A stretch of 64,000 bases of DNA, from contig NC_042998.1 in assembly GCF_006345805.1 (NCBI RefSeq), positions 56,048,001 through 56,112,000 of the forward strand, read 5' to 3'. Origin of the DNA: Octopus sinensis. Lineage: Eukaryota. Numbering within the stretch: position 1 is the stretch's first letter; every line of letters starts with the position of its first letter. The position numbers and the translations under genes are program-made. The notes below the pieces were generated by a model that was not told where the DNA came from, did not search any database, and worked only from the letters and a program-made list of their open reading frames with translations. Of this stretch, positions 11,901 to 58,224 are shown piece after piece.

Positions 11901-14900
11901 GAACACATTGTATGTCAAATGCACAACAGCAGAGTATCTAACAATATGTTTTTAATAACAAAATAACCCTACTTGTTGGTGTTCAATAAATTCTGTGCTT
12001 TAATTAAGTAAAAAGAATTTATTTAGCTATATTAAACATCTACTAGAATTACAATACTGTGTACACAGTATTGTAATTCTAGGAGATGGTTGTTGATTAC
12101 AGACTATGTCTCTGCAGTATTCTGTTTCACAAATCATGAATCTTTACTCGAGATTTGTTAATAGTGAATCTCATTCTTCTGTTCATAACTGAAAATTTCC
12201 ATTCATTAAAATAATCACACTTGAATTTTTTTCTTTTTCTTTTTAACACAATATCTCTTAGAAAGGAAAATGAAAATTAAATGCACTTTCTATTTTATTT
12301 ATTTATTTATTCAATTTTAAACAATGTAGGTACTTTCCAGCAAAAATTTTTGGCTATTTTGAAATTTGGGTCTAATCTATTCTTGTGATAAAATCATAGT
12401 TTATAATTCAAATATATCAACTTTTCTATTTTCCTATTTTGGAATGAAATGAAAATGAATAATTGAATACAATTAAGGTACTTAATTTTAGTTTTCTGAT
12501 GGTTGGTTTGTCCACAGAGCTTTTGGTTTTAGATTTTAAGTGGGTTATAAATTTGACATAATTCAGACAATTTCAGTTGTCCACTCGACTTAGATTTTAA
12601 TTGGACATACAAGATTAAAAGTAGATACATACAATATCTGAAATAAAATATCTTGTTTATAAATATTATCTCATCCTTTCATGGAGTGAAATTAGCTTCC
12701 TTTCATAGTAAAAATAATGGGTTCTGGTGAAAGCCAAGAAATACCTGAAAAGCTACAAAGTTTGATAAATTTGGTAAATAAATATAAAACAGTGGAAATG
12801 AGTTGTGAGGTTTTTTAAGGAGATAGAAACATCAGACAGTCACGTGTATAATTTATACCACCTGAACTAAGTGATTACTGCAGAATGTTGAATGTATTTA
12901 ATTGAAGAAGCTTTCTTTTATTTTTTATTGCATTCATTAATTATTTCATTTTGACAGCTTTTGTTCAAATTACAATGCAAAAGCATCACTCGAATGTATT
13001 TTTACACCTGGCATCAAGTAAAATACTTATAATACTTTAAAATAATAAAGAATTAGAATTGGTATTATAATATAATAAGAATTATAATGTATTAAGATCA
13101 GAATATCAGTTTGATATTATTGTAATGCTAAAATTTAAATTTTCTTTATATTTCTTGTGGATAAATATTGGTTCACTTATTGTTCTTTATTTAATTGAGG
13201 AATATTAAATTAACTTTTCGTTTTCATTCTTATGACATTATAAATTACTTTAAGGCAGTGAGCTGGCAGAATTGTTAGCACACCAGGCAAAATGCCTAGC
13301 AGTATTTAGTCTGCCGCCTACATTCTGAGTTCAAACTCCGCTTTGGTTAACATTGCCTTTCATCCTTTTGGAGTCAGTAAATTAAGTACCAGTGAGACAA
13401 TACTGGGATCGATGTAACCAACTAGTCTCCTCCCCCAAATTTCAGGCCTTGTGCCTATAGTAGAAAAGGTTTATGAATTACTTTATGTTCTATAATTATG
13501 TGTTGGAAAGTACAATACTAATATTTAGTTTTTACTGGAAAAATTTCCTCTTTGGATACTTTTTCTGTTTTATTCATAATTATGCTGCTTTCTCAGTATG
13601 ACTTAATTTTTAGTTTGTGATTATTTTATATAACTGTTCTACTAACATGTTTACTAACATGATCTTTAAAATTATGTGGTATCATCAAGGAATTTATGAA
13701 TTATGGATTAATTTATAGTTTTGATAATTGTTTTTAATAAATTAATATTAAAATTATTTTCTCATTAAAAATAACAGAATTTTATAAGGTTCTGTGTTTT
13801 CATTAAAGACAGTCATTAATTTAATGAATAATTACCTTTTTCCTGATTACTTTGACATTCAAGGCTAACAATCTACCAGAGAAAATACATGTCACTAATT
13901 ACCAACTGGGTTTAATGGACCCAATATTTTTCTTTTAATTAAATTTTATTCAAACTACCATTATTTCTTAGTTACATTATAAATGCCATCAGATGAATAA
14001 AGAATTACTGTTTCTCACTAATTTTAATAAAAAAAATACAGCTTACAGAATATATTTTAAATTTTAAACATTACAAAAATACAGAATTACAGCTCTTTAT
14101 GGCAGTGAATGCAGACAACATTGGAATGTTCTTGGCAAACATGGATATTACAATTCTTATATGTAGTACGAGTTTTCCTGTCTTTTTTGGGGCCACACAA
14201 AGAACATTTTCCTTTTTTCTTTGGCTGAGAAATCACAAATAAGGTTGAAGATAGTCTTCTTTTCTTATTTGGTTGAGAAATGTAAGTGGAACTAGAAGAT
14301 TGTTTGTCATGTTCTTGTTTAGCATTAACTCCATTGGTACACCCAAGGTTAATTATAGAGAATGTAAATTTGGGATGAGTTAATTCCAACTTCTTATCAA
14401 ATGAAAAACCATACTTTTAAATCTGTTGAAGATGAAATGACCCTGATGTGATGATTGATGATGAGTTAAACTCCTATAAATACACTTTGTTGCAAACTTT
14501 TTGGTGATCAACAAAACATCATTCCAATACAATTCGGGTTTCTTGTAGATAGAGTGCAAAGGAAATCTCAAAATTGCTACTTAAAAAAGACCTTTTGTGC
14601 AATACAGACAAATAAGACAATATGTCAACAAATATATTATCTTGGAATATTATTAATTGTTAATACAAGATCATTCCTAAGAAATAATGCAACAATCCAG
14701 CTAAACAGAAAACTTTATTAAACAGGGTCTATGCAAATTAAGTTGGGTCAAGTAGAAAATTGACATATAGGCTTCAGAAATATTAGAGTATTATATGTGA
14801 TTATGAAAAAAAGGACTGTAAAAAAAACTTAATTGAAATAAATTTATAATTCATAAATTTTGCTCATCAATAACTTCAAACCAATGTGAATTAAGAATAT

Positions 14901-17900
14901 TTTTAAGAATCTTCTTTTGTAGGTATTATTATTTTCATAATCACAACTATTGTTATTGTATTATCTCAATTCTAAATCTGCTTATTAAAGCTTACAAACC
15001 AAATTAATCATTGAAAGGCAAAACAACAAAAGCTCTTCAATGATTTCCTGGTTCAGTTTTCAGTTTATATTTTGAAAAAATACATGAACATGGAACATTG
15101 GGTTTATGGTCATCAAACAAAACACTCCTTTATGTTTGCCTAAAACTTCATGTCTTTTTAAAACCAATATTATTTTTTAATGGTGATGTTGTTTTTAATA
15201 TTAAATGTTGTTTCAATATTTTAATTTCAAACTTTAGAACAAATACTTTCCTATGTTAATATTCAGCTCCATATTAAAAAATTTTAAATATTAACTCAAA
15301 CTATACAGATATATTCATAATAACCTTAATGTTCCTTTATTTATCAACTAGCAGTATCGCCCGGCGTTGCTCAGGTTTGTAAGGGAAATAACTATAAAGT
15401 ATTTTTAGAGAGTTATAGCCAAAAAATAGCAAAAAAATGGAAAAAAAATGATGGTAAATTTTTTTTTGAGATTTAAAAAAGGTGGAGTTGCGTCCCCTAG
15501 ACAGTTTGTGGTTCGTGTTTCTGATTCTCGACCCCATGTCGAATTTATCGATTTTTTCAGAACTGGGGGAACTTTTCAAAATTTTCACTGCGTTAGTTTT
15601 GAATTATGACATTGGGCTATGTGTGTGTCAAGTTTCAGCAGAATCGGTTGAAAGCCGTGGTCAGGGTGAGGGTACAACCTGACAGACACACAGAAACACG
15701 CACAGACAAACTGCCGTTTATATATAGAGAGATATACAAGTTGGATTTTGAAAATTAAATTACTTCTGCTTTATTTACAATTAAACTGGATAAAATCACT
15801 CAAATATTTTTAAAAACTGTAGCTTTAATCCTTAATTATGTGTATGAGCCCCAAAATCCAAAGGGCCAAAGAAGCAGCACCTAGACACATTGTCTTTATG
15901 TAATATAGCTAAATTACATCAGCTTTTTGAAACCCATTACTTTTTTAGAATAAACTCATGGGAGTTTTGAACTCAGCACTGTGATTTAATGAAGATGTTT
16001 CAATTATATACTGCATGTATGACTAACTTTATCATATTTTACCTGTGTATTTACTGCCTTGATTGTGAATACAATGAAGTACAGTTAACAAGATAGTGAT
16101 CTTTCAGCCATTCAATTGACTTACCTGGCTGCAGCTTAAAAAAATGTTAAAAACTAGAATAAACAAAATTTGTATCAGTGTATAAAATATATAAATACAT
16201 GTATGGTCTACAAAACTGAAAATTCAATATTTGATATAAACTGTTTATATAAAGGAAGTTGCAACAATTGCCATTTAATATATATTTTTCCTTTTTAGAC
16301 AGGAGTGAAGCGTTCAGTTAAACTTCAAGATGGATTAATCCATCTAAAGGTATTTGTTACTAACCCGCTTCTTAAACTCTCTTATTTATAAATTTATGGT
16401 TTAAATTTATATCAATATCATTTATTTCAAAATAATTCTGTCATCACTTAGTTAAAGAATGTCATTTGAAATTAAATCCATCTTACTAAAATCTTTTATT
16501 ATTGTATTAATTAATTTTATATTTCAATAACAGAGTGTATTTCACTTTGTAATGTTGCCTCTGTAAATATCTTCAAAAAAATGGTCTGCAGTATATGAAA
16601 TTTCTAAGTATTTACATCATTATTAACATTTAAATAATATTATCTTTCTTTCTTCCTAGATGTGATACATTAATTTCTCACAATTCTGTTTGTATTATTA
16701 ATTGCACATTAATAATGATATACTTTTTTCTAGGATGCTACATATGAAGTTATAACCATTAAGGTTTGTGCTTAGATCCTCAGATTTTTGCATGTTTTCT
16801 TACAACTGCACTTTTATTTCTCAAAAAGGTAGCTTCTAAATCAACTCATTTTCTTTCTAATTATCGACATGTGGTATTGAAGTTAGAAAAACTTGAAAGA
16901 AACATACATATCATCATCATCATCATCATCATCATCATGCATGCATGCATGCATGTTTCTTTCAACTTTTCCTATCTTCAGCACAGCATTTACTAGAGGT
17001 CCACCAAACATACCAACTTTGATCTAGGCATTAGAGAGCTCTCAGTTCATACAATGGATTTTGAAAAGCTACACCTCAAAATTCTAAGGCTTTTACTAGA
17101 TATTCTATTAGTTCTAGTTTTGTATAAAGTTCAGGGTAATAAAACCTTTTAGGTCTCACAGGTGGCTGCCTGACTGCATTTAATTTTCTTGGCTGTAATT
17201 CCTACTATGGAGGCCCAGTGAACTTAATGATAATGATCACTAACACACCTGCTTCATCATAAACAAAGAAAGCATAAACATCTTGCATATCTACCCTGTA
17301 AACCAAGCAAAAAGGCAATCATCTTGAAATCCCCTTACATATCTCACTTAAATTCTATTCAGGTGATTTTGTCAAATAGCTGTTGTACGTTTTCATTATA
17401 TTCTTTCATTTGCCCTAAGTAGTAGAGGTGGTTATTGGTTTCCATTGTGAAGTTAACTGTACTTCTAATTAAGAGCTTGTAAGCTCAGATTACAGGTTCT
17501 TAATAAAAGTACAAGTTTCATAGTAATCTAACCACAATAAATATTAATTTCATTTACAGATACTTGTGACATCAGTAGGCTATGGAAGACAATGTCTGGT
17601 TACTGATGGGCTTACCATCACTATCCATCATCATTGTAATGTCAAGAAAGCAAAAAAACATAGTCATCATGATGATTCTCTCCATATTCTGGGAAGACTC
17701 ATTCTCATACCTTTTAGCTATCCTTCATGAATAGATTACCAACTTCCACATATTACATGGAGGTGAGGGTAGCAAAGGTTGTTTTAGTCACTGATAGTTA
17801 CTCTGAAGTACATTCTTTATGCTATCCAAAAATTGGCAGGATTCACAATTTTATGTGATGTTAGTTTGAGTCCAACAAAATATCTATAAAGATAATGTAT

Positions 17901-20900
17901 CTAGCAGGTTTTAGTTTTTTTACTTGAAATAGCAGCTGAATTTTCCTTGGGTTATAGGCTTTTGTCTTAAACAAAAATGACACCATCTGAATAAAATATA
18001 GGATGACATGGCTCACATGCCTTTTATCATAATTTTGTTCACTTAAGGCTAACTTATGGATAAACAATTACAAAACAAGGTGAGAAAATGAGTTAATTTA
18101 CAACTAAATGCTACTATCTTTTTCCACTTTCAGATTCATATTTCTCAAAAGCAAGCATGATGGAAAATATTTACTGCATTTATTTTTCTTCATTTCTTTA
18201 TTTTATTTTATTTTATTTTAAGTTCTGCTTTAGTCTTAACACAAGGAACATTTATCTAGAATGAAAGTGCATGTTTTAATCTTCAGTTTGTTTTGCATGT
18301 ATTGTTAGGGAGACCGTGGCCCCAAAGGCTTACCAGGTGCTCTTGGGGAAGATGCAGAATTAAGAATTATTGAATTAAAGGTAAATAGATATTTTAACTG
18401 ATTTTAGAAATTTTAAAAAATATATATCCAGCGTAGCTTTTAATTAACCATGACATTCAAATATAAATATATATATATTGAGTCATTCCATGAATAATGC
18501 AATTTTTTTATATTTCTTTTATTTTTCAAAATTAAGATAAACAAAGTTATTTTTTAATCTAAAATATACTCTTTCATTTTCTACAATGCTTTATTATCTA
18601 TCAGGTAGACTTGCAAGGACCCTCTTCCAAAATTCACTTGTCTGTGACAAAAAATACTCCTCCAGTACTGTTCTGACCTCATCTACAGAATTCATTTTTT
18701 TCCCATCCAAATGATTTTGAAGACTGCAAAATAAATGATAATCAGATGGGGCAATGTCTGGCGAATATGGTGGGTGGGGCAGCGTTTCTCATTCAAACTG
18801 CCCCAACCTTTGGAATGTCATCCTCACTGTATGTGGCCAAGCATTATCCTGATGGAAGAAAACCTTTCATCTTGAAACCAAAGGTGGTCGTTTTCCTTCT
18901 AGTGCTGACTTAAGCCACTGAAGCTGCTTTTGTTATCGTTTGGTTGGGTTTAAAATTTTAAAGAGGACTAAACTTTTCATATCCCACCAGATAACACTTT
19001 ACATGGGTAAAGACCTTCTTTAGCCTGGGGTGCCAGTGTTTCTCCTTTCCTTACTCACTGTCTTTGGTGCTTTACATTTTTATAGAGAACCCCTTTCTCA
19101 TCACCAGTCACCATTTGATCCAAAAAAGGTTCATTCATGAGACGTGACAGCAAGGAAGAACATACATTCACTCTTTGCACACGATTAGACTCGGCAAGTT
19201 TGTGAGGAACCCATTGACCCAATTTGCTGGCTTTTCCAACTTGGAATTTTCGGACTTGGAATTTCTGGAACCACCGTTGACACTGGCTTACACTCATTGT
19301 TCAATCCCCATATACTGCATTAATATTCTTTGCACTTTCCATCGAGTTGTTGCCTTTATTGAACTCATAAAGCAAAATATACCGAATATGCTCCTTTGTC
19401 ACTTCCATTATATCTTTGAAAAAATACCTGTTAAAATCGAGCTGCACTCTTCAAAGCTTGCACTAAGAATAAGTACAAGATAAAATTACTACCAGCTTTT
19501 ATAGCAAGTTGATGCAGGTAGTTTATCCCATCCCCCTCCAACTTTAAGTTCATGCAATTGAAAAAACTCACATTATTTATGATATATATATATATATATA
19601 TACATACACACACACATGTATATATTCAGTATAGGTTTTAATTAGCCATGATTTTTTAATAATAAAACTGTTATTTTAACACTGTCATTACCATATTTAT
19701 TTTGAGATGCTCTATGTTTCTTTCAACTAATTTTAAATATAACAAAGAATTTAGTAAAATAACTTAGTTATCATTAAGATAGTGTTAGGAACAAAAATTG
19801 TGACTAAGGTTTCATAGAAGATTTTAATTCAAAACTTAAAACAAAACATTTGTTGAGGCGGTTCCAGCTGGGTTGGTATCAAAAGCGTTAAAGCATATTT
19901 ATGGCTAAAGTAGGGCATCACAGGTTTTTGACTGCTCTTGCTATAGCTGTTGCTTATACTAGTTGTCACTTGTTAATATAAATAGTTACTCTATTTGCTC
20001 TAGCTTTATAGTCCCATCCATTGAAGGGTTCTCATCACTAGATAACCAGACATTTTGATAAATCTATACTACCAAATAGTCACCATATTAATATTGCAGA
20101 AAGTAAAATGGAAGACATAATTTTACTATATCTCCAAAAGCTATATTAATATCACATAAGTGAAATAGAATAGCTAAATTTGCAAAACAGCTGATGTATT
20201 GCACAGTTCAAGCTATATCACTACAATATGGACATGGAATGATAAATTTGTATTAAATTGAGTTTACAAAGTTCTTTTATGCAGGAATTTATCCTTTGAA
20301 TCCTCAAATTAAGCTTTTACATCACTAGAAGACCATTTTAGATTTCATTCATGGAAGCAATATACAAATAGGTGATTTCTTTTTTATTTGATAAGCAAAA
20401 TTTATCATTTTTTTCCTGCACTTTTTTCCGGCTTTAGGATGCAGCATAGACAGGAATTTTAAAATTCCTCTTATTGTTTAAATAGCATTTTTTTTATTTC
20501 TTAGTGCTTGCATTATTGTTTTACATTTAAATGCATGTAAATGTTTATTTGTGTTAAACTTTCAAAACATTCCCAAATTGTTCTTTCAAAACATTTTGTT
20601 AGAATAAACAGATTTATTCAAAGCATGTAGCTTACTTGTGTTGCATGATTACATCTGCTTTAGGCAAATTTCCATAATGAAATTTATTACTATAATCATT
20701 TCTACTATATTACTAGATATGCACCATTACAATTCTTATTTACTGTATAAGATTTATATACATTGTAACAATCAAATAATGAATCCTAACCAGTTGGGAG
20801 AATTTTCTTCAAGACCACAATCATAATGCAGTTCATTGTTTTTTTCTGTATCTCCTATATAATTTAGAAGTGCCAAATCAGAATAATTTGTTTTTTTAAT

Positions 20901-23900
20901 ACAATCATTAGACATTATTTCCTAACAATCGCTATATTTTTATTTTCATTATTTCTAGTTTACTTCTTTCAACTTTTTCTTTCCATTTCTTTCTGCACGT
21001 ACAATTAGTTATTCATTTTCATTACTGGGTTGTGTTAGGTAAAAAAAAACAAAAAAACATACAGAACTAAATATTACATTAAAACAACCTGTATTATATT
21101 CATTATTTTAAGTAACCATATTTCTGCTACTGCTTTTTATATTTTAAAATTAAATACAATTTTTATTTCCATTTTAAACTTTTAGGGCGAACCAGGTGAA
21201 GCAGGGCGTCCTGGTCCCCCAGGTCCTAAAGGCACACCTGGTCTGCCAGGATTTGATGGATTAACAGGTGCACCAGGAGAACCAGTAATATTTTTATTTT
21301 ATTTCTATTCAAACTTTATTAAAACTTTGCTAGAAATTTAGTATTTATCAAATAATTAAAACTTTTTTAATATTACTGTTTATAATAGAAAAGGTGTAAT
21401 ATTTACATTTCTTTAATACAGTGTAAATAAAACAGTGTTATTGAAAAGACATCATTCAAAGAAAAAAAATACAGTATTTAATAGTGCCATTGCAATGTGG
21501 TTTAGAAGCTAGATTTGCAGCTTAATGAATCTAAGTTCAATCTTGCTACACAGAACCTTGGGCAAGTGTCTTTCTACCATAGCCTTGTATTGAGCAATGC
21601 CTTTTGAGTGAAATTTGATATTTGGACACTCTGCAGTAGCTAAGTGTAACTGTGTGTGTGTGTGTGTGTGTGTGTGCACGTGTGTGTGTGTGCTTTCAAT
21701 GAAAGCCATAAACATTTGGTAAAAAATTGATAAAATTGGTGTTTTGCAACAAAATACTTTGTGACATTTGTTTTGAGTTGCAAAGATGCTCCTTTGACAC
21801 TCTTACCATTTAAACAAAATGGGTTAAAATAAGTGATTGGTTCACTGGAAACGTCTTAAAAATTGAAGTATATACAATATGAAAAGAAAACAAATAAAGT
21901 TTGGCTGGAACTGGTAAGCCAGAGAGCTGTACAAAGCTTCAGTCTGATTTTGACTTGGTTTCTACAGCTGAATGCCCTCCCTAATGCCAACCACTCCAAG
22001 AGTGTAGTGGGTACCTTTTATGTGTCACCAGCATGAGTGTCTTTTACGTATCATTGTCATGGATGCCTTTTATGTGTCACCATCACAGGTGCTTTTTATC
22101 TGTCATCGTCATGGGTACCTTTTACATGTCACCATCATTTACGTGTCACCATATATTTGTGATGGGATTTGTGCAGCCTGGTTCTATCATAGAAGACGCT
22201 TGCTTAATGGTGCCATGCAATGGGATTGAACTGCAAACCAAATGGTTGAGAAGCATGCTGATATATCATGTATCAGCATGTATATTTAATATCAGTTACT
22301 AATTTACATCTTTCCTTCATTTGTCTCTTATTCAGGTAAGATTTTATTTAAAAATCAGTATATTAGTTTATTTTAAACAATAATGATTCAGACTGCGTGA
22401 CTGTGTGCAAAGATATTTTATCGACAAATTTATATTATTCTTTTATATGTTTCAGCCTTGAGGCTGAAATCTTTTACTGATTAAAAAATTTTAAATACTT
22501 TTATTTTATAGGGTCCGGTTGGTCCACGTGGCCCACCTGTAAGTAATGCTTTTTCTTCATACATTTTTCCTTTTATATTTTTGCTAACTTCTTTTATGAA
22601 TAAATTTAAGTTAGTCCTTTCATAGAATCCCTTCTCTTTTGGATCATACATGATTCCAGTTTCTATAATTGACAAAAATCAAATATCTCAATGGATAGGA
22701 TGGAAGTCTTTAACAAGTTTTAATTTTCACAACCACATATTACACATTATTTGATTTGCAATCCTTTTGCAATTTTATTAGAGTTAAAATATTTTGAACC
22801 CTTTCATTGCTATATTTCTAACCAAAAATACACCCCTTATGTGTTTCAGTGAAATTCTAATACCATCACAAATTTAGACTGGTTTCATAAAACGACTTGA
22901 ATTTTTTTCTCTATTAACATATTAATGTGATTTTTAGAACACAATTCATCAAAAAGCTCTTGAACAAATCTTTTGTATAATTTTAGTCTCAAAGTAGCTA
23001 TATTACAAGTAAAAACAGGTGAATTCAACTATATATAAATTATATAAGGGCTGTTTTCCCACTTTCATTGGCATATAGGCTCCCCACCTGGATGAGACAC
23101 TGGTCCGTTGCAGGTGAGCTGCTAGATGCAGGAGGAAAGAGTGAGAGAAAGTTGTGGTGAAAGAGTTAGCAGAAGTTTGCCATTACCTTCTGCCTGAGCT
23201 GCATGGAGCTGAGGTGTTTCACTCATAAACACATGCATCACCTGATCTGAGATTCAAACCCATGATCCCTCAGCCACGAGCTCGCTGATCTAACCACTAG
23301 GCCATGCGCCTCGGCACCTGTGCCGGTGGCATGTTGCCAGCCTATCCTGGCACCTGTGCTGGTGGCCCGTAAAAAGCACCATCCGTATGTGGCCCATGCC
23401 AGCACCACCTTGACTGGCTTCCGTGTTGGTGACACGTAAAATCCACCAACCGATTGTGGCCGTTGCCAGCCTCCTCTGGCGCCTGTGCCAGTGGCACGTT
23501 AAAAGCACCATCTGTACATAGTCGATGCCAGCACCACCTTGACTAACTTCCATGCCAGTGGCACGTAAAAAGCACCAACTGATCGTGGCCGTTGCCAGCC
23601 TCCCCTGGCACCTGTGCCTGTGGCATGTAAAAAGCACCCACTAAACTCATGGAGTAGTTGGCATTAGGAAGTGCATCCAACTGTAGGAACACTGCCAGAT
23701 CAGACTGGAGACTGGTGCAGCCTCCTGGCTTCTCAGACCCCTGTCAAACTGTCCAACCTATGCTAGCATGGAAAACAGACGTTAAACGATGATGATGATG
23801 ATATATATATTAATGCAATTGAAACAGTTGTGGGATTTTAGGGTATGATATAAAATAAAGATATGATTTTCTTCATACATATTTATTAGTTGTTGTTAAT

Positions 23901-26900
23901 TATTCTGAATGTCTTAAAATTCTGCATAAGGATTGTTGGATATACCTGGGAATTGTATTCTACATACATTTACTGGTATCTACTTGTTGGAAATTTAACC
24001 ATATTCCTTTATACTGATTGCTTACTTGATATCTACCAGGATTTTTTAATCCCATTTTTTCTTATATATATATAAACATTATCAACTACACATACTTTAT
24101 GTATGTTTTTTGTTTCTTTGCTGTGGTATGGCACCTTGAGAATGATTCCCTCTTAGTACTGGGTGATAAGTCATAAACAAGCAAGACAACTTGCCTCAAA
24201 TCCCATACTGATATTTTGCCATTTTTTGTGACTTATCAATCTCACCTACCAGAACCAAACCAGGGACCAACCAAATTGCCATACTATATACAAATAGTGA
24301 GTTGTCTCACTTGTCTATGACTTTCAGGTGTTTTAACACCCAGTGCTTTGAGAGAGTCATCCCCAAAGCACTATACTGCAGTGAACAAGCAAAGCACAAA
24401 CATTGAGTATGTGCAGTCAATAATGTTTACAACATTAGTGCTGTTTTTAATTCATAATTGGATATGTATATATGTATATGGTGTGTGTGAGAGTATGCAT
24501 ATGTGTTTGTATATGTATGTATACACAAATCATGCAATATTTCTGACATCAAATCTAGTAAAGCACCCCACTCTGCAAAATGTAATCTTGCAGAATGCAC
24601 AATGGAGACTTGTTTCAACTGCCCATCCACTGAGATCTTTCCTTTTTTAAGGAAGACATTTTGTGGCACTTGATTTTCTTGAAGTTGTAGGGGCTGGCTG
24701 AATTTGGAGGAATATTCCTCTGGCTGGCTTTAGTTTTTAGTTTTTCTCTCATCATCAATTTTCTTTTTTTTATGAAAAACCAGCCCTCAACTGTGTTGTT
24801 ACATCTGCTTGGAACTGCAGATAGTCACATCACTTTCAAACCTCTTCTGATTTGGTATATCATATAAATACTCATATCTACTACATACCAAACCAGGTAT
24901 CACCACCACTTATTACCTGATCTACTGACTAAGATAATGGCTCATCATTTAATTCAGTTGATCTACATGACCCATGTACCTATTATAATCAAAGTTCATA
25001 AATGGGGTAGCATTTTCACCTACATGCAGTTGGATTATTTCTCATCTCTTTTTTAATTTTGCTTTTTTTATATCCAATGGTATCCCTTTCCTACTTGCAA
25101 CAACTGTAGCACATGCGTATGTTGCCATGACTTCTAAATCCACTGCAAATTTAACTGAACTGAAGATGAGTCAAAAAAAAATAACGTCTGAAAGTGTTGA
25201 ATTCCAGACCACATCAATATATCCTAGACCATGCTGGCTTACATTATTGTCCTTTTTCCCCTTATAAAAGTTCAATCCACTGTGGGTACCCAATGTAAGC
25301 TTTCTAAATCTCAATTTTGATCCACCCACCATTTACTGTGTTTTTCTGAGCATGTGCTGTCAGAAACGTAATCAGCCTTTATATTTCACCATACCCTCAT
25401 CAATGGATAGGTATCTCCCTGGATTGTGTGATGTTTTATATGCATTTTGAATGCAGTCAGTTTGGTTCTTTATGTACTGATGTACTACTAGTGTCTCTTT
25501 ACTGTGATAATTTTGAAAATCTTGTCCATGTCATAATGCTAGATACATATTGATCTCCAAAAATCCCACTGCTGCTTCACTATTTCTTTTTTCTGTTTAG
25601 CTTTCTTACACCCATAATTATATTGATTGCAAAAAAGGCTCAGATTTCATCTAAGTATGTGGAAAACCACGATGATTAGATTCCACAGCAATTGTTTCAA
25701 ACAAACTAAGGGGAAAAACTTAAACGAAAATAGTTTCATGCTTTTATCTCCTGGGAAAAACTGACTAGGCCCAGTCTCCTCAGAAAAATCAATATGAAAG
25801 ACAGTTTTCAAATTTTTACGCCATTCAGGTTCAAATTCATTTTTATGTTGCTACCTGAGTTGTCATCAGAATCGTTGGTTTCACTTTCAGAAATAGAAAT
25901 ATTTAATTCATACTCACACACCACATGGCTTTTGTGTTCATTGTATATTTTACTTGGTTTTGCCATGTCCTTAGTGAAAAATCCCCTCAAATCCTGATTC
26001 ACTATTTAACAACATGAAACTAGTATCCATTTGTCATCAGTATCAAAAATTTTCAAAATATCGATGTAGAAAAAATGTTGAAAAAAATCTCCAAAAATTC
26101 ACAAAGGTCAGATATCATACCAAGTAATGTAAGATACAGTAACTCAATTGTTTATGTAGTGAAATCATGTTCTCACAAGTGTACTAATGAGATTCACACT
26201 GACATTTTCATTTAAATATGACTAGGTTATTTCAGCCATTTTCAGCTAGATTGGTAACATAAGCCAATAAAATTATCAGTCAGCTATGGCCAGACTGGTA
26301 ATGTATTAAAGTGTACTGCCTTGCTGTTTTGAGTTTCTGATATTGTATTGCTTTACCATTTGAATAAAAATTTATATTTATAAATTTATAATATAGTCAG
26401 TCTAATTTTTTAAAAATTTAATTTATAAGCTTACATACTTTGTTTTATCAGAAACTCTACATATCCAAATCCTATTGTCATTTCATGTTTTACAATGTCT
26501 TTCTGATTTATGTACAGAATTTATGAAGAGTGTAATATCCATATTATAATAGTTTCTGTTTTACTTACACTATGTGAATATCTGAATTCTTTTTTTTTTG
26601 TTTTGAAGGGTCCATCAGGTAAAGATGGATTGCCTGGACGTCCAGTAAGTATCTTTTTAATATATACTATTCCAAATAATTTTCTTTGATTATAATTTGT
26701 TCTGTATATCCATATTTTAAAATGACCAAGAATATTAATTTTCTAAAATATGCATGATGCATATACTGCAGTTACCAAATTGTAATATATTCTCAATAAA
26801 AATGAAAGCCAAAAATATTTTTGTATAGTTCTGCTATCTGAAAATGAATGTTCAGGTTGGAAAATCATAACCAAATAAAATACAGAATTACCATTGAAGG

Positions 26901-29900: not shown

Positions 29901-32266
29901 GCTCAGTACTTTCCAATTGAATGCAATATTCAGTCTTGTAGCATTTAATTTTGTCAAACTATATCTGAAGAAATCTTGTAATCTATATTAAACCTAGACT
30001 TGTTTTATCATTGTTGTTTTTTTGGGTTTTTTGTTGCAATAAACACAGTTTATGTTAGGTTAATGTGATAGATATAAAACCTAAACCTTGTGAATTAAGG
30101 TCTGTCTTTTTCACTACTTGATGGTGCACAGAATTTTTTTTTTATAAATGCTGAAAATTTTAAGATGAGGCTCTTAGTTCCTAAATTTTTCTTTTATATA
30201 ACTATATAAATTATTTACATTCATATATGTATTTCTATTGTACATTTAATTTTTGCATTTTTTTTATTCTTTGTTGCTGAATTTAGAAAAGGGCTGTGAG
30301 TAATATAATCCAAGTACTGATTAACATTTTTTTAAAAGTCTGAAATGCAACTGTATCAGATATGATAATATACACTATTCATTCAATGGCTATCAGTTTA
30401 ATATAAATTTTAAAAACCATCTACAATATTTAATTTCCCAAATATATTTGGTACATGTTGTGTAATTCAGAAGCTTTGCTTTAATTCTAAATTATTGTTA
30501 ACTTACTGATTTTTATGCTTTCGATAATAAATTAGGAATATGGTAATGCACTTACCCACTTAATATACTAACACTGTGACTGCAGCAAAATTCAAGTGTA
30601 GCTTAGTATATTCATTTTCATGAGTAGAGAGAAAGACAGCATCAGGTATATTTCAAAATGTTTTTCTTTCCCCTTTGAAGAAACGTACCAAAGCCTGTGA
30701 ATTTGAAGTCACGGATATTAAAGCTGCACGTAAAAAAAATCGCAAGACCAGAAGTCATGCACCTAATAGTCAGGTAGACCCTTTTTGTAGCAAGGACTTC
30801 ATAAGCTCCAAACTAAGGCAACTAACATTTAATGCTGCAGTCATGGTTGAGGCTGCTTGCAGGCCCTTGCTCAAACTGTTTTAGCTACTGTAGGATCTTA
30901 ACTAGGAAAGCTTAAATCTAATCTAATTTTACAATGCAGGACTCATTTTGAAAATATTTTGTTAACAATTAAAGATAGCATTTTGTTGGAATTTTTTAAA
31001 AACTATTTGTTCAGATATATTATTTATAATAGCTGTAAATTATTTAATCTAATACAAAAAAGATGTTCTTTTCTGATGTTTAGACAGATAGAATAATTTG
31101 ATATAGAAATATTTTCCAACATGAGTCTTAGCAATTAATATACTACTGAAGGTGTTAACTCCCCTCTTTAAAATCTTAAGTCATATACCCCTTTAAAAAA
31201 AATTATGGCACATTGTATAGACTTTAACTTTCAGTAACTTCTGTGCAATCAATTTTTTTTTTGGTTTTAGACTATGTTCTTTTATTTCTAGATTTATCAG
31301 TTTAAAGACTATCAGTATATATACATACTAATTTTGAATTTATTATATTATTGTTTTTCTATGCTGACAAGAGTTGGACAGATTTGCAATATATGTCACA
31401 ACTTATGATTTGTTTTGTAGTTTGATTTGTTTTCTTTCAAACAAATACTTAATCTTAGATGAGAGATTATGCAAATTCATAAAGAAAGTTTGTTTTTTTA
31501 ATGAATTTCAAATAAATTTTCCCCATATTTGAAGTGCACTTTGTATTACATATTTTATAACACCTTCAGAAGTGTATAAAGCTTTACATTTACTTATAAT
31601 AATGATATTTTATACTTTTGGGCTACTTCATATAAAAGGTTTATTTTTATATTACTTTTTCAAATCAGTTGTACACACAGGTAAACTTAAGATCTTTTTG
31701 ATATTTTGTATGAAGTTATTTTTCTACCCATGCAGATTGAATGGAATTCAGCATTAAATGATCAAGGTAAGAAATTTGTTAATATTTGTATGTTAGTGTT
31801 ATGATCTCATCTTTTATTTCTCAGGGTGAAATGGGTTTATCTGGTCTTCCTGGATACAAAGGAGAAAAAGGGAATCGAGGCAAGCGTGGACGCAAAGTAA
31901 TTAAGTTATTGATGATGCATGTATATTAGTTCAATATATTTTCTCTCATAGGAATCACTTTGGCATGTTCTAACTGATGTTGTTTTCATTGTTGCCTGGT
32001 ATAATAGTACCCAATTTGTTCTAGTGACATGTGATTTCTTTCCCCTAAATAATTCCTATGACATGCAAATTGATATCCAAATAGCTGTTTCATACAAGTA
32101 ATCATATAAATTACATGTGCAGGCACATGCACACATACACACATGCATATATTTATATATATACACACACACATATATATATACACACACATACATGTAT
32201 ATATACATTCACATATATGTATTTATATATATATATATAGACATACACACACATAAATATATTTAT

Positions 32267-41700: not shown

Positions 41701-44700
41701 ATCCAACCCATACCAGCATGGAAGACAAATGTTAAAATGTTGTTGTTGATGATGATGACGAAGGTGATGAGGATATTTTCTTTCAAAGTTGAGAATTTAA
41801 TTTGTGGAGGATTTTTTGTCATCGAAAATATCCTCACATATGTAGAGAAACTCAGAGTAGTGACAGAAGTGAATCATCACTTCTGAATAATTAAGTAAAC
41901 TTTAGTACATGCTGTTGATACTTTTCCATCCATTTGTTTGTGTGTGTGTGCATGCATGTGTGTGTGTGTGTGCATGCATGTCTGTATGCGTGTGTGTGTG
42001 TGCGTGTGTGTGCGTGCGTGTATAAATCATTAATCTATATTATTAAATCACATTAACATTTTTTTACATTGTCTTCTACAGGGTCAGCCTGGTCCCCCAG
42101 GCATCCATGGTATAGATGGTTTGGATGGAAAGCCTGGAGAAGCTGGACCACCTGTGAGTGCTTTTCTTTGGGATATGCTATTGTAATTTTGAGGTAAACA
42201 ATAGTATGATTTGCAATTCTGTGTTTTCTCATAAGAAAAAAATTCCCACTGTGAGAATATGAGTTTTGTAATTGATAGCATTTTAGTGGGAATTGCACTT
42301 TTCTTGAGCCTGAGAAATTGAATACTGAAATTATATCGATAGTATAGAATTTATCTGACCATTTGTTTATTCAGTAGATTTAGAAATGTTGTGGAACGAT
42401 TCTATGCTCTGATGAGTACAATAAACATAGTGAAGACATTGTAAATTCTTTCATAATTCTATCAATACAGGCCATGTTTTACATTTGCAAATATATGTGT
42501 ATTACAATTTAATAAATACAGCACTTGGTTTTACAAGTGGCATCTTATAATAGAAACATGGCCAGAACCCTAATGATTCAAATACATGATATAAAATTGC
42601 TTGAATTTTCAACTATGCAATTGTAAGAAAATAAATAAGAATAGAAAGTAATGATGAATATATAAATTTTCACTTTATAAGAGTAATCCTGATTAAACAA
42701 TCCATGATTGTGTACAACTTTCAATACAGCATGAAATAAACAAAATCAAATGCATCCAGTTTCATACTAAAGCTATTTTTGTTCATTGCAAAGTTAAACA
42801 TAGAAAAGATACAGAAACACTATGACTTGAAGGTACTGTCTGATTGAAAATCTGAGTAATAATCAATCTTAGAACTTAATTACCTGCACTATCTAATTTC
42901 TTTGGATAGAATTTGTCTCTCATCTTCATATTGCCTTTATAATTCTCTCTTCTGAAAGACAACTTTTTTTTTCATCACTAATATCTGTAAACATAAAATC
43001 ATTGTCCTTTTTCTGAAAAGTAGTCAAATATGAAAGCAAGTTCAGTTGAATTTTTCTTCATTTCAAACAGTTATATAAGTTTTCAACATGTGTTCCTTTT
43101 CTGAAACTAGTTTGTGGTACAAAAACAATTCCCTGTTTTAATTTTTCCATTTGTCATTAATCTAGAAATAATATATGAGACACACCTATGTCATAGTCGT
43201 CACCATCATCATCATCACCATCATTATCATATTTTTTCCAACACTGTAGTCATTGTCTCTGTCATGAACAAGTCCTCTCTACTCTATACATTCATTATTT
43301 CCTATCACCATTGAATTTATAGCATAGACACAGTACCATGCCGCTAGAACTAGAGAGGTTGTTCATCAAAGTGCTAAAGAGTTTTCTCTATATTACATAA
43401 TTCTTATATTGAGTTTCTACTCTCCTTGACATGACTCTCCATAGTGTTAGGAAGAGATTTCTCAAACTAGAGGCTCACAGTGGAAATCTAGTACCATTGA
43501 GAACAATAGTTATCTATGTCATGTGGAGGGAGGACCAATTATAGATACTACCAGGATTAAATAGTGACACTACTTTTCAAGAATCCTATAGAAGCCCTGA
43601 ATAAAAGTTGACAGGTTTTTAATCAAGGTTCCTGCTCCTAAACAAATTGTCTTTGCTTTAGCTTGTTGAGTCCAGTTCTCTGTGCAATTATGACAGAACT
43701 CCTTTTATTGATACAGATCATCTGTGTTTAGTTTGGAGATCTGATAGTGTCTTTATAAATACTGGAGGGATGAAGGAACTAATAAATTACGTTAACCCAT
43801 TTACTATTGTATTTTTGATACATAATAGTTTTAACACCTATTTGAGTGAGCCATAGTTGTTTCCTTCTCAATAATTTTCTGACAGTTTCCACAATTATAG
43901 GAATGTTAATAGTTAATCCAATCTATATACACAACAACTAACACTTAAACATCTCAGAAACAAAAATGCTAGTTGCTTTTCAATATCTTTCAGCTAATTT
44001 GATGAGCTAGCAGCTTTACTTTTTAAGTTACCATTTAAGAGACTTTGTTATTACTTCAGTTTAACTGTCATAACAGCCTTTGGACAAGAGTGTTCTATTG
44101 ACAGTTTTCTATCATCCACTCAAGATTTCACCTATACCTTCTGCACTCATTATTGAATGAACAGCATATGAGATATTTTTTCTTATTTTTTTAGTAACAA
44201 TTTGAGAGAAAATGAACTGTTACCTAAATCAATGTTGAAGATATAATAACTCTTACCAGATTTCCAGATATACAATATTTACCATTCTAATTTGAGTTAT
44301 CTACTCATCAGAACTCTTCTTACAACTGAATGTAATCCAGCAAAAGAGCAAACTAATATTCATGGTAACCAACTAAATTCAAACAGAGAGCTTTTTATGG
44401 AAATTTTCCTGTTTTAATTACCCCAATAACATATTTCGAGTACTTATTCTCTTGCAGAATGACAGAAACAATCTTGACATATTTTGATTTGAAAATTTTG
44501 TGGAATTGATATAAATTATCAATTCCCTGATATTATGAATTATCTATTCTAGTATTCTGTTCTTCTTTGTTGATATATTTTATTTAGCAAACTGCATATA
44601 TTAAAGAATTCATTTTTAATAATAATTCTATTTTTAAAGTTTTTAACCTTGTTTCCACAGATAGAAAAAGGAAAAGCACTATAAAAATAGGAATAACTCT

Positions 44701-47700
44701 TATAGTAGTAGGTTCATGATTAAATAAAATAGACAATTTAAAATAACATCTTGGTTAAGTAAAATGTCTAAGATTTTTTTGAAAAGTTGCTTTTTTCATA
44801 TGCCCACAACCACTATGGCAGTTTCTGTAAATATTCATACAAACAGGTGGTAACATATATGTAAATATATTATGAATAAAGATACGATAAGGAATGTATA
44901 TCACTTCCAATTCTTAGCTAAATGGTTTATATCAAGAAAGTATCCATTTTTAAACACTTAGTCAAACATTAAAATTGCAAATCCATTAAATTCATATTAG
45001 TAAGAAAAGAAAATGTTTAAAAATTTGCCATTAGTTGTAAACTTTTAACTCATCTCACATAAACATGCTGCAGGACTCTTATCTTCTGAACTTCATGGCA
45101 CTTGAATTCAGCAGACTATCTCTGGCAGTTACTATGCTTCACTCCTATGCCACCCGATATAGCTAAGCTGAAAACTGAAATCTCTGTCTTATATGTCCAT
45201 TTATATCCCTCAAAACCAAAGCCACAATTCCAAATCTTGTGAGTGATTCACACATAGCCACAGTGCTGGAAAAGAGCATGGCTTATAGCATCTTAAGTGA
45301 GTGTGCTATAAGGGGTTTATAGCTCCTAATGGCACACTCACTTTCAGTGCATGGACGACTATTTTATGTACCACTGCAACTCCTGTGAGACTTCTATCCA
45401 AAAAGTAAATGTACTTTTTTGCATCATATAACCTGCAAGTTCTCGCACTTTTCAAACTACAGCCAGACCAACCGCTCCCTTACTAAGATCTCTACTAACT
45501 TAGCAGAATCCTCCTATTCAACATTTCCCAACCAAGATGGCTCTATATGCAGTACTGCTATGTAGACAGTTTCCACATTTGCTACCTGATTTGCAGCTAT
45601 CTCCACAATACATTTCTTGTTCATTCCACAAATCTCACCATCATAAATGCACTTTTCAAACCAACATGGCTACTGATTCCAAAAATACTTCTTTTGTTAT
45701 TCTTCCTTCAACAGATTATAAAATATCCTGAAATAATAATAATTTACCAATTGATCCCTATAATGATATACATCTATCATGATCATTTATAGACAAAATT
45801 CCTTTCATTATTTTTTGTCTTTTATTTACACTTATCTGGCTTTATAAGAGTGCAATCAATACCAAAATGTCATCTTATTCAAAAGCGATTTTTTCATAGT
45901 GTGAATTTTTTATATACCATACTATAGTACTATTTTAAGGAAAATTCTGCAAACTGTACCTAAAATCACATTGAAAGTTAAATTGATTTAAAGTCATTCA
46001 AATTAATTTAAGATAAGCAATGTACTGTTTTAAGTTTTCAAATTTTTTAGGGACAGATACTTAGATACAAAATGGATAATACAAAACCACTGCTTTGGCT
46101 TTAAGAATTTCAAAAATTTAAACATGCATGCATTCAAAAAATTAAACATACATGCGCCCATTCCCTTTTCTTTCCAATACCACCCACATGCTCCCATTCC
46201 TTTTTCTTTCCAATACCAACCTCCTCACTGGAGTCACCCAAATAACCAGCACTTCTGCTATATTAATTTACTATGCAATATGCTCCTTTCGTAATTCCCT
46301 ATAGACTAAACATTTGTCTTGATAATGATTCTTTTACTGCATGCTATTTCTCTTCTGCAAATCACTCCACCAAATATCTCTACATGTTCGGTATCACTCG
46401 ATGCAGAAGTTCCCTAAACTCTCCTCAACAATGTGAACATGAACTTATTTTCAGTTTTCAAATATTCACTCTTTTTGTTTAACACCACATGCTTTAAACA
46501 TTTGGCTTTAAACCTGAAATTTTACCAGTTTTTTATCATCTTATAGACACTTCACCAAACTCTCCAGACCTTTTATCAGTGGCATGTAATCATTACTAGT
46601 TTTTGTTTTTTGAGGATTTTTTTACTTTTCTTCCCTCCATGGTATTCATATATTCTCTTTCCTTTTCTCTCTTTTCCAAATTTTAGCTTAACACTTGCCT
46701 CCTCATTAAAAGATATTTCACACTACTACATAATCTTGTTATACACTTGCACATACATCAATAACAGCTTATATATTGTTTTTGCCATCCCATTTGCTTC
46801 ACAAATATATTTTTCCTTACATGATTTTATGCCACCCACCTAATGATTATACACACACACGAAACACTCTACATGTGCACTATGCTTCCACACTTTGCAT
46901 ACCTCTATACACATACACAACACTAATACATACTTATATTTGCATTTACACAGCAACTCAGATAGCTGGTCCCTCTGTTGGGTCGACATTCGGCAGACTC
47001 TCTTTCTCCCATTCATTTTCTTTATTGAGCAACCTTTCATAGTGGCGTCTCCAAACCTCTCTCTTTGCAGCCTTGTTTAGTGCAAGTGAACCATCATCCA
47101 TGCAGACACATTTCTCTCCTATGACATCACGATTCTCTCTCACACACTGTCTTGCAACACGAAATACCTCAAGTCTTTGGTCCTCACGGCGCAGAACATT
47201 GGCAAATTTTTTCTTATCTGCTTCCCCTCTGGCTAAATAGACCTGTCTCCTAGCTTCCCTTCTGGCAGTCTGATACAATTCCCTGCTACGACTGTCCCTC
47301 CAAGCCTGTTTCTTTTCTCTAATAGCCCTGTCAACAAAATTGTTCCACAACCACATTATTTTGGATCGAGAGGGGACTTTGCACCATCCACAGATCTGGT
47401 CAGTGGCCCTCAGCAGGTTGTCCCATAAAACCTCCAGTTGTCTTCTACATCATGTGAAGCTATATTCCCTTCTATTTCGTCAAAGGCTTCGAGTAATATA
47501 TCTCTAAATCTCTCTCCATTCACAGGGTCTTTAAGCTTCCACACCCTTCTCCTCCATGCTCGTCATCTTCTGGGCATCCACTTAGCCCTGATCCTGAAGT
47601 CACTGAGTACCAGTCTATGCTGTGGGGTACATTCTTCACCTGGGAAGGGTTTGGCATTTATAAGCAGCCATCTTTCCCTTTTCTGGTGAGGATGTAGTCA

Positions 47701-48956
47701 ATTTGGCTAGTGTGTCTGCCAGAACAGTAGGTGACTAGGCGACTGGCAGGTTTTCTGAAGTTAGTATTGCAAACCATAAGATCATTTGCATCACAGAACT
47801 CCAGCAGCCTGGTTCCCTCCTCATTGCGGGAACCAAAACCATAGCTTCCATGTACACCATGGAAGGCCCCTGTATGTTGTCCAACATGACCATTGAAGTC
47901 ACCAGCCACAAAGAGATGGTCCCTGTCATTCACCAATGAGGTAGTCTGCAAGAGGGTGTCATAGAATCGGTCTTTAACCCTTAACACAAAAACCCCCTAA
48001 TATAAACCCCTAACTCCAACTTCCACTCATAAATAATTTAATATTCAACTAGCTCTTCCTTTCTCGACTACCTATACACACACAGCCCCATTGCTAAAAA
48101 TAACTCTACAGCCACTGACCTTAGCCAGGATGGACACAAGCAATTACTACCAAACTTCCTCCCCCAACAACTTTAGACTTTCTTTAAATTCCTTTCATTT
48201 CACTCTATTTTTTTACCCTGTCTTCCTCTACCTCCTCATCCTCTCTCTTATCTTCGCGGCTACCCCATACACAATTCTTAGACACCATACACATATACGC
48301 ATTACTTTATCATATAGCCAATCCTTAAAATCCCCCCTATCTCACTCTATCCACCCCTCTTTCTATTTTTTTAAAATTTCTCTACTTTTACCAATTAACA
48401 GCCACCTCTGCTACCATTCTGTTATTGAACGTTGATATGTTCGCGTCTTTCTTTTGGGATGTCTACTATATAAGGACTTTAACCCACATGGATATACACA
48501 GAATTACACCAAAGGACTCATGCTTTGGTTTCTATAACTTTAGAAAGTTGAACTACAAACTTTTATGCCTTTTTTCTTCTTTCTTTCCATCTCCTTATTC
48601 TCTTACTCCCTTCCTCTATGTTATCATCTTATTGATATATACCATTCTCATTTTCCATACTTTTTCCCCAATTTGTCTCTGATGACAAATATTCAATACT
48701 CAAGGATATCCCAGAAACAGCTGTAAGATTTTTTTATTTCTTCCTGTAATAATATCATATATGACTTGAGATGTTTGCCTTGCCTTAATGTTTGATATCC
48801 TGTTTAACAATTATCTATCCACTGCATTAGAAATCTGCAATGGCTCCATAACTACCGTCTCAGTTATAACCTTGGAGTCCCAGTGGTCCACTTACTAGTG
48901 TAGCTAATCATTTAGCTCACCTGTGAACTAAAACCTCATACTTTGTATATATATAT

Positions 48957-48992
<36 letters not shown>

Positions 48993-50044
48993 GCTAATCC
49001 AAACATGAAAGCACAAAGAGAAAACACAACAATGTGAGGACGTGGAACAAGTATAGTGTTATTGGATGCTCAGGAAAGGAAAGAAAGAAGGAGGATTTAA
49101 CGTTTCGAGCAGAGCTCTTTGTCAGAAACATAGAAAAAGAAAAGGTCCAAGGAATGGAAGACGGAGAAAGAAAATCGCCAACGATACACACACGGTCACA
49201 TATATATATGTGTGTGTGTGTATGTGTGAAGATGTACCCAAAAGTAACCAGGAACATTCTCTATGGGAAAAGCCCATTGTAGTTCCGGTTTCCGCCACTA
49301 GAAGTCACTTGATGCAACCCTCAGGCATCAGTCTGACAACCAGCGTTGTGCGCTGAGGTCATACTGCTATGTGCTGTGTCTTTGTTTTGCAGTGCTTCTC
49401 CAACCATTGGTTTGCCGTGTCTCCGAAACATGTACTGAGAGTGATAAAGATCAAACATCCAGTCAACATCATGGTGTTTGGAGTGATCACTAGTAATGGT
49501 GACGTTATATCTCCATTCATCTTCCCACACGGCCTTGGACTCAATACAGAGGAATACATCAAGTGCCTGGATGAGGTAGTGCTGCCCTGGGTCAAGAGGG
49601 TGGCCTCTGGAAGACCCTATATCTGGCAACAGGTCTCCACACCATGCCACGCAAGCAGGAAAACCAGTCATGGCTGTCGGACAATTTCTGCAACAACAAC
49701 GCCCTTAAAATCTGGCCACATAACTCCACAGACTGCAACCCTCTTGATTATTATGTATGTAACACCAAAGATGAACTGAAGGCAAGGATTATGGCAGAAT
49801 TCAACAACTTAAATGAGAAGACCATCCAGAAGAGTTGTAGGAGATTCCAAAATTGTTTGGAGGCTATAGTTGAAGCCAATGGTGATTTTATTGAATAAAT
49901 TTACTCTTTAATATTTCAAGATACTTTTATGTAATTTTGGTAAATACATCTTTTAAAATGAGGTGTCAGTATTATTTTCATTTTTGCATAATTTAGATGG
50001 CAATTTATTCACTGCACCCTGTGTGTGTGTGTGTATGTGTATAT

Positions 50045-50094
<50 letters not shown>

Positions 50095-50162
50095 TGTATG
50101 TATTATATACCCTGACTACCTATATATATATATATGTATATATATATATGTGTGTGTATGTG

Positions 50163-50193
<31 letters not shown>

Positions 50194-58142: not shown

Positions 58143-58224
<82 letters not shown>

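What the first reader, a model, noticed from the sequence alone, without database searches (positions are those of the whole stretch)
30287..30773. Splice-switchable furin site: 9-nt KRA microexon and 93-nt polybasic exon inside a triple helix
Seen: the upstream exon ends GLPGRP and the next collagen exon starts GEM, so skipping leaves an unbroken Gly-X-Y run. Both candidate cassettes begin with K-R, so either one creates R-P-K-R across the junction. Both together add R-A-K-R, and the long exon also has RKKNRKTR and a Cys. Established: R-X-K/R-R is the furin consensus, MACITs are shed by furin, and a UGC just upstream of the acceptor (here -12 to -10) marks SRRM4/eMIC-dependent neural microexons. 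Inference: splicing toggles an intact versus internally cleaved ectodomain, releasing a fragment that begins near the basic GKRGRKGRR segment.
Basis: partly seen in the sequence, partly recalled or inferred. Interest (0 to 1): 0.75.

Follow-up and report, generated by a model that had tools for sequence, protein, structure and literature searches.

The report
Splice fork in octopus membrane collagen
In the middle of an octopus membrane-anchored collagen gene, RNA either splices straight on through the helix or takes a side branch that adds basic residues and a predicted furin cut site; the branch likely leads to a shortened protein rather than back into the helix, and use of the 9-base mini-exon is likely but was not seen.

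Summary
The anatomy is as described. The host gene is a full MACIT (collagen XIII/XXIII/XXV, COL-99, CG42342 family) in a mollusc, a phylum where Tu et al. 2015 found none. The direct 26644>31825 joint shows in 6 of 8 runs laid, and 26644>30681 in 1 of 8, so the 93-nt exon is real and optional. The 9-nt KRA exon has eMIC-type features (UGC at -12, 107-nt AG-free zone, GTGAGT donor), but no joint shows it; only an unresolved branch 3 nt after 26644 hints at it.

In the three runs that branch at 26644, the downstream contig is unbroken. In the two deep ones it holds only about a quarter to two-fifths of the upstream depth. The K-R branch therefore probably ends elsewhere, giving a short collagen with a basic tail rather than a long helix cut in two. 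A close relative has K-H-P for K-R-T, which loses the long exon's junction site. Furin cleavage, neural bias and squid conservation are untested. Splice-controlled furin exons (ApoER2) and heavy MACIT splicing are known. Verdict: real and testable, partly supported.

The parts
21186..21284 (+). collagen exon (99 nt), start of COL2
   Evidence: the 165-nt upstream contigs fit this exon plus 22512-22538 plus 26609-26644 plus 3 nt
22512..22538 (+). collagen exon (27 nt)
   Evidence: joint 22538>26609 in X1 and X22
26609..26644 (+). collagen exon before the fork; ends G-R-P and supplies the P4 Arg of the junction site
30178..30286 (+). microexon acceptor region: 107-nt AG-free zone, pyrimidine tract, TTAAT branch-point-like site at about -41, TGC at -12..-10
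30287..30295 (+). candidate 9-nt microexon K-R-A (gtgagt donor); inclusion inferred, not seen
   Evidence: indirect branch evidence
30681..30773 (+). 93-nt optional exon (31 aa, basic, one Cys); acceptor use shown, partner of its donor unknown
   Evidence: joint 26644>30681 in X11, depth 52.7; unique in the genome; word shares argue against read-through past 30773
31825..31896 (+). collagen exon after the fork, with the basic G-K-R-G-R-K segment
38259..38366 (+). next collagen exon (108 nt)
   Evidence: loose ends behind 31897 match its start in X13 and, with changes, X12; Pfam Collagen at the cut-off
1741..18380 (+). five upstream exons in the window (1741, 4976, 7264, 8382, 18309): COL1 and the NC2 linker. 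Further upstream and outside the window: transmembrane exon L024:5012-5269 and furin/CxC exon L018:3548-3617
   Evidence: gene model from splice sites, not from reads
42082..61124 (+). four downstream exons in the window (42082, 56417, 60095, 61092). Further downstream and outside the window: exons to the C-terminal signature exon L006:1270-1353

Best explanation
This is a real splicing fork in the middle of the second helix of the octopus MACIT collagen gene: transcripts either continue straight into exon 31825 or take a branch that begins with Lys-Arg (93-nt exon shown, 9-nt microexon likely), and that branch likely does not return to the helix but leads to a different, not yet located 3' end. 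Shown: the two routes, and the gene's MACIT anatomy at sequence level. Inferred: the branch product would be a short MACIT (membrane anchor, coiled coil, juxtamembrane furin site, COL1, NC2 and 18 triplets of COL2; 295 aa) that ends in an unfolded basic tail and lacks the rest of the helix and the conserved C-terminal cysteine motif. It could still trimerise because MACITs fold from the N-terminal side. The R-P-K-R and R-K-T-R sites would then let furin trim that tail, or leave it as a glycan-binding patch, rather than cut a long rod in two. The microexon route is predicted to be neuron-biased through the Srrm234 eMIC factor.
For: Skip joint in 6 of 8 runs and 26644>30681 in X11. A 33-nt contig (26615-26644 plus 3 nt) marks a branch in X11 (depth 118.3) and X13 (110); X12's upstream contig also stops at 26644. 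The skip contig is unbroken through 31825-31897 and beyond in 3 of 3 branching runs; a rejoining path shares those 31-mers and should break it (all 31-mers are distinct per accession; Logan preprint passage). Depth: X11 upstream 165.7 against branch 118.3 plus downstream 38.8 (157.1), where about 160 would be expected downstream on rejoining; X13 142.2 against 110 plus 56.9, where about 137 would be expected. Word shares fit the 93-nt exon being held in X12 and X13 in records not shown (11-12 words listed, 4.3-4.7 expected from visible pieces, 11.5 with the exon) and argue against read-through past 30773 in X11 (P about 2e-6). N-to-C folding of MACITs (PMC7848082 passage). SRRM_C hit over cut-off in the genome.
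Against: The continuation records were not shown, so the branch's end was never seen; no last exon can be picked among 80 acceptor-like sites. Both exons are phase 0, 3n long and stop-free, which is what ordinary cassettes look like. Contigs are simplified graphs with a filter that drops records, and my claim that the assembler would not delete the return paths rests on recalled Minia rules. Contig depth is a flat mean and is not uniform along the transcript (X12 downstream 18.1 exceeds upstream 9.5; X22 reads fall from about 6x to 4x across the skip joint). A chimeric contig breaks X11's long-exon path at 30766. The word-share argument assumes even sampling, checked only roughly on X1, X10 and X11. 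One search hid 165 joints. No tissue labels were available.
Confidence: 0.5

Rival explanations
1. One reading: both exons are cassettes that rejoin 31825; inclusion interrupts the helix and creates a furin site, so the shed ectodomain is cut in two and a fragment starting near the basic segment is released.
For: Frame-keeping, stop-free exons; both start with K-R after a G-R-P exon end (2 of 14 window exons end G-R-x; 3 of 264 intronic AGs precede K-R/R-R). Invertebrate MACITs carry extra predicted ectodomain furin sites (PMC4678570 sections 6 and 10 passages). An arthropod MACIT has a polybasic linker inside its ectodomain, though at a later position (P0090). ApoER2 is a precedent for a furin exon.
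Against: No return joint in any displayed row; unbroken, shallow downstream contigs in the branching runs. The long exon's junction site reads K-H-P in a close relative. The microexon alone equals one Gly-to-Lys change in the helix, and the skip form already holds R-G-K-R and R-G-R-R inside helices, so a motif alone does not predict a cut. The internal site of COL-99 'remains to be proven'.
Confidence: 0.28
2. The exons are cassettes (or lead to a short form) whose job is charge and flexibility, not cleavage: they add a kink, a free cysteine and basic residues next to the G-K-R-G-R-K segment and so tune binding to heparan sulfate or receptors.
For: RKKNRKTR and the Cys are kept in the relative that loses the junction site. 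C. elegans col-99 exon 12, which is skipped in two isoforms, carries a G-K-R-G-R-R segment (supplement 1 of PMC4678570). Collagen XIII binds heparin (title of a cited paper only).
Against: Two independent exons both start with K-R at the one place that completes R-X-K-R. No binding data exist here.
Confidence: 0.14
3. The 9-nt site is a silent look-alike and the 93-nt exon a young, weakly constrained exon; the branch is splicing noise.
For: No joint shows the microexon; two amino-acid changes in 31 codons against a near-identical relative; no family or distant match for the exon; acceptor scores of 3.9 and 4.6 lie below the median of true acceptors.
Against: The branch carries about 70% of upstream depth in X11 and X13 and a branch at 26644 also occurs in a diverged relative (X12). 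Less than half of X11's branch depth is explained by the long exon, and only 30287 and 30681 are AAA-starting acceptor candidates in this intron.
Confidence: 0.08

Closest known systems
MACIT collagens (human XIII/XXIII/XXV, C. elegans COL-99, Drosophila CG42342); PMC4678570
   Same: Type II membrane anchor, coiled coil, juxtamembrane R-F-R-R plus C-x-C, interrupted helices and the C-terminal two-cysteine motif (19 of 21 residues as in COL-99 and 18 of 21 as in human XXIII, compared by eye); single copy; a 70-nt furin-site exon ending in phase 1, the length given for COL25A1 exon 3; heavy alternative splicing.
   Different: Found in a mollusc, where the 2015 survey found none. The splice variants in the passages read drop in-frame exons and, for collagen XIII, keep the furin site and C-terminal peptide; here optional non-collagenous exons add basic sites inside a helix and may remove the C-terminus. 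The conserved Trp after the last Cys is missing.
ApoER2/LRP8 furin exon (PMC1635701, passages)
   Same: An optional exon supplies a furin site in an ectodomain.
   Different: There the site lies wholly in the exon, in a non-helical linker, and cleavage is shown. Here the site forms across a junction, at a triple helix, and cleavage is only predicted.
SRRM3/4-eMIC neural microexons (PMC8797185 and 10.1101/2024.09.17.613571, passages)
   Same: 9 nt, frame-keeping, UGC near the acceptor, long AG-free zone, consensus-like donor.
   Different: Inclusion and tissue bias not shown here; the tract is U-rich without the UCUC repeats described for fly targets.

Membership tests
MACIT collagen | type II transmembrane topology | tested here: met
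   First exon L024:5012-5269: short N-terminus, 19-residue window of mean hydropathy 2.44, then a heptad-like charged stretch. This is a prediction, and the link of this exon to the gene comes from the model, not from reads.
MACIT collagen | interrupted triple-helical ectodomain | tested here: met
   Four Gly-X-Y runs of 41, 58, 17 and 21 triplets in the model; 45% identity to a CG42342-like protein over residues 108-563 (low-complexity, so weak alone).
MACIT collagen | conserved C-terminal motif with two cysteines | tested here: met
   L006:1270-1353; phmmer gives 134 hits at E<=0.001; of 9 hits looked up, one is named CG42342-like; matches the alignment.
MACIT collagen | juxtamembrane furin site before C-x-C | tested here: met
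   R-F-R-R|Q then C-D-C-P-P in a 70-nt exon, L018:3548-3617.
MACIT collagen | furin-dependent shedding of a trimer | not testable with these tools
   Needs expression experiments.
eMIC/SRRM4-dependent neural microexon | 3-27 nt, frame-keeping, UGC near the acceptor, long AG-free zone | tested here: met
   9 nt; TGC at -12..-10; AG-free zone 107 nt.
eMIC/SRRM4-dependent neural microexon | weak 3' splice site | tested here: inconclusive
   2.0 against 6.9-15.4 in-sample, but 3.9 against a leave-one-out range of -2.4 to 12.1 for 21 true acceptors.
eMIC/SRRM4-dependent neural microexon | included in mRNA | tested here: inconclusive
   No joint or between-letters row shows it in 8 runs (tables were cut); an unresolved branch exists in X11 and X13.
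eMIC/SRRM4-dependent neural microexon | regulator present in the genome | tested here: met
   One PF15230 SRRM_C match over the cut-off, 32.6 bits; whether it is a working eMIC domain was not tested.
eMIC/SRRM4-dependent neural microexon | neural-specific inclusion and conservation across species | not testable with these tools
   Runs carry no tissue label; no squid or cuttlefish genome is held; a metagenome scan found no relative.
splice-controlled furin exon (ApoER2 type) | optional exon creates R-X-K/R-R | tested here: met
   R-P-K-R appears only in inclusion models; lost for the long exon in P0001.
splice-controlled furin exon (ApoER2 type) | exon is an internal cassette of the full-length protein | tested here: inconclusive
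   No return joint seen; contig topology and depth point against it, but the continuation records were not shown.
splice-controlled furin exon (ApoER2 type) | cleavage shown | not testable with these tools
   Needs a furin-inhibitor experiment.

The most novel reading that the evidence does not exclude
A neuron-specific three-residue microexon, read by the eMIC factor, writes a furin site across a splice junction inside the triple helix of a molluscan MACIT and so decides whether neurons display or shed an intact rod, a cut rod or a short basic-tailed form of this axon-guidance and synapse collagen.
Probability: 0.2. Interest if true: 0.75.

Novelty: new variant of a known kind. Interest (0 to 1): 0.5.

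Why it matters
MACITs guide motor axons and build neuromuscular junctions in mice and worms (PMC7848082, passages). A complete MACIT in an octopus overturns the published absence of the family from Lophotrochozoa (PMC4678570), although public annotation of the gene was not checked here and may already name it. A fork that carries most transcripts in some samples and none in others means the protein exists in at least two forms. If that form is short, it would be a MACIT without the C-terminal motif that defines the family and whose function is unknown, which offers a natural test of that motif.

Tried and rejected
Read-through last exon: the frame of the 93-nt exon stays open to a stop at 30882-30884 and GC stays at 37-47% to about 30900. 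Rejected as the main form because X11's word share leaves no room for it and the tail is frameshifted in P0001. X11 record 11 (1167 nt ending on 30737-30766) is a chimera with a locus on contig C27, not a second gene copy. Repeat origin of the long exon: one match in the genome. Full-length octopus or other named mollusc proteins were not returned by three word-based searches or seen among the phmmer hits looked up (19 of 134-plus hits looked up); these short low-complexity queries are weak, so this is no evidence of absence. Metagenome scan, two ESM Atlas searches (best scores 0.84 and 0.87) and Pfam on the long exon gave nothing. A search for the branch's last exon from sequence alone failed. 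Laying reads on 13.9 kb let repeats crowd out the joint table. No complex or fold was run, because the junction isoforms cannot be submitted and a model would not decide cleavage. Earlier scan notes on this place, sequence or relatives: none.

Full report
Observation. All sequence claims hold. Exon 26609-26644 ends G-R-P, 31825-31896 starts G-E-M, and between them lie ag|AAAAGGGCT|gtgagt at 30287-30295 and a stop-free 93-nt exon at 30681-30773. TGC sits at -12..-10 of the small exon. It is the only one of 167 short AG..GTRAG candidates on the + strand of 264 kb that passes a pyrimidine-plus-TGC filter, against 0 of 180 on the - strand (post hoc filter). Its AG-free zone of 107 nt is second of 17 exons. 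Acceptor weakness is less clear than the in-sample score suggests: 3.9 and 4.6 for the two exons against -2.4 to 12.1 for 21 true acceptors scored leave-one-out. The region 30200-30850 has one match in the genome.

Host gene. The genome is molluscan (37 matches to the haemocyanin beta-sandwich family); earlier scan notes call it Octopus sinensis, which fits my recall of the assembly size. From 400 kb of fetched flanks I built a 27-exon model over about 230 kb: a first exon with a predicted transmembrane helix and coiled coil, a 70-nt exon with R-F-R-R and C-D-C-P-P, four helices of 41, 58, 17 and 21 triplets, and the two-cysteine signature exon. The last coding exon was not found, and most joints of the model are not read-supported. 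The signature has one match in the genome and 134 phmmer hits, among them a CG42342-like insect protein. These are the three criteria of Tu et al. 2015, who report no MACIT in Mollusca or Annelida (PMC4678570; abstract, sections 5, 6 and 9, passages of 10 and 13, supplements 1 and 2 read). My searches for a later report in molluscs listed none by title or abstract start; subscription journals and database annotation were not covered. The fork lies after residue 295, 18 triplets into the second helix.

RNA evidence. I laid 8 of the 24 runs listed. The direct 26644>31825 joint is listed for X1, X22 (3 reads), X10, X11, X12 and X13, and not for X21 or X23, where depth was near zero. The 26644>30681 joint is listed for X11 (depth 52.7). 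X11 and X13 each hold a 33-nt contig of 26615-26644 plus three letters (depth 118.3 and 110). The letters are not printed; overlap with X11's long-exon contig makes them AAA. X12's upstream contig also ends at 26644. X1 and X10 run through in one contig without a branch, and X1's unspliced contig crosses the long exon unbroken. So the fork is sample-dependent; tissues are not given. Only 30287 and 30681 are AAA-starting acceptor candidates in this intron, with six more downstream in the window. The 65 or so depth units of X11's branch that the long exon does not explain may therefore be the microexon, but this is inference.

No displayed row joins 30295 or 30773 to 31825 (one search shows its joint table whole; one search hid 165 rows). 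A path that rejoined 31825 would share its 31-mers and split the downstream contig, since all 31-mers of an accession's contigs are distinct (Logan preprint 10.1101/2024.07.30.605881, methods passage). That contig is unbroken in X11, X12 and X13 (642, 561, 642 nt). Its mean depth is 38.8 in X11 and 56.9 in X13, against about 160 and 137 expected on rejoining, and branch plus downstream roughly restores the upstream depth (157 of 166; 167 of 142). By my recall of Minia's bulge and error rules these return paths would not be deleted; that is recalled, not tested. The records that continue the branch were not shown in any run; in X11 a chimera with contig C27 cuts the path at 30766. Word shares fit the 93-nt exon being present but unseen in X12 and X13, and argue against read-through past 30773 in X11. 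The simplest reading is that the long exon uses its donor, but to an exon outside 26560-31940 that does not return within the next 540 nt of mRNA: an alternative end. I could not locate it. Depth is uneven along the transcript (X12 is deeper downstream), so the cassette model stays open.

Furin sites. The skip model has R-F-R-R at 98 and also R-G-K-R and R-G-R-R inside helices. Inclusion adds R-P-K-R|A (microexon), R-P-K-R|T and R-K-T-R|S (long exon) or R-A-K-R|T (both). Two of 14 window exons end G-R-x and 3 of 264 AGs in the intron precede K-R/R-R, so the double K-R start is unlikely to be chance, though it could reflect selection for charge. An unnamed Logan ORF from a close relative, seen on 5 contigs, matches 29 of 31 residues of the long exon; both changes (K-R-T to K-H-P) fall on the junction site, while RKKNRKTR and the Cys are kept. 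From established knowledge, furin needs an extended single chain, and a three-residue insert equals one Gly-to-Lys change, so a cut after the microexon alone is uncertain; a free tail or a 31-residue loop would be cut more easily.

Mechanism. Shown: two routes from the 26644 donor, use of the 30681 acceptor, and MACIT anatomy. Inferred: microexon use, neural bias through Srrm234 (one SRRM_C match over cut-off; features as in PMC8797185 and 10.1101/2024.09.17.613571, passages), a short product with a basic tail, trimer formation from the N-terminal coil (PMC7848082 passage), and furin trimming.

Comparison and novelty. Alternative splicing is common in MACITs: col-99 has six isoforms, one skipped exon carrying a basic segment; COL25A1 has 13 further in-frame alternative exons and mouse collagen XIII at least 17 transcripts (PMC12669723, passages). 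Extra furin sites in invertebrate ectodomains were predicted and remain unproven. A splice-controlled furin exon is established for ApoER2 (PMC1635701, passages). Searches for a microexon in a MACIT or a splice-made furin site in a helix listed no such paper; I saw only listings for most hits, and microexon tables in supplements were not examined and may hold MACIT exons. Three further papers were opened by passage without bearing on the result (10.64898/2026.09.05.749416; PMC4890022, which reports a skipped collagenous exon of Col25a1). The finding is a new variant of a known kind: real, cheap to test, with its most striking step unproven and its cassette premise in doubt. Interest 0.5.

Noticed in passing
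L024:5012-5269 to L006:1353 (about 230 kb around the window): A complete single-copy MACIT gene in a mollusc, a phylum where the 2015 family survey found none.
   Followed up: yes
window 21183-21186: The upstream contig is 165 nt in X11, X12 and X13, which implies two upstream partners of exon 21186 that share three last letters. Exons ending at 7299 and 18380 share four, and no unknown exon was found in 8454-21185. The transmembrane exon would fit; that would skip the furin-site exon and COL1. Untested.
   Followed up: partly
L005:4691-4786: An exon with two possible donors (51 or 96 nt); the longer form adds a C-A-C linker and three triplets.
   Followed up: no
window 56557-56562: A 6-nt exon-like site (K-A) with a strong acceptor only 50 nt after exon 56417-56506; probably too close to be used.
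   Followed up: no
window 31828-31897: No difference over 70 nt in the diverged run X12, while the first 30 nt of the next exon differ at about 4 places; the exon after the fork may carry splicing signals. Its first ten residues equal a stretch of human collagen XXIII in the alignment.
   Followed up: no
L002 and L003 (G000 contig C27, about 5.92 and 6.13 Mb): Two near-identical copies of an expressed AT-rich stretch about 207 kb apart on opposite strands; one forms a chimeric contig with the long exon in X11.
   Followed up: partly
window 36305-36411: A tandem 40-nt duplication that ends in two acceptor-like sites before a 27-nt open stretch.
   Followed up: no
window 18500-20050 and 21900-24300: Abundant transcribed repeats inside introns that dominate read depth.
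   Followed up: no
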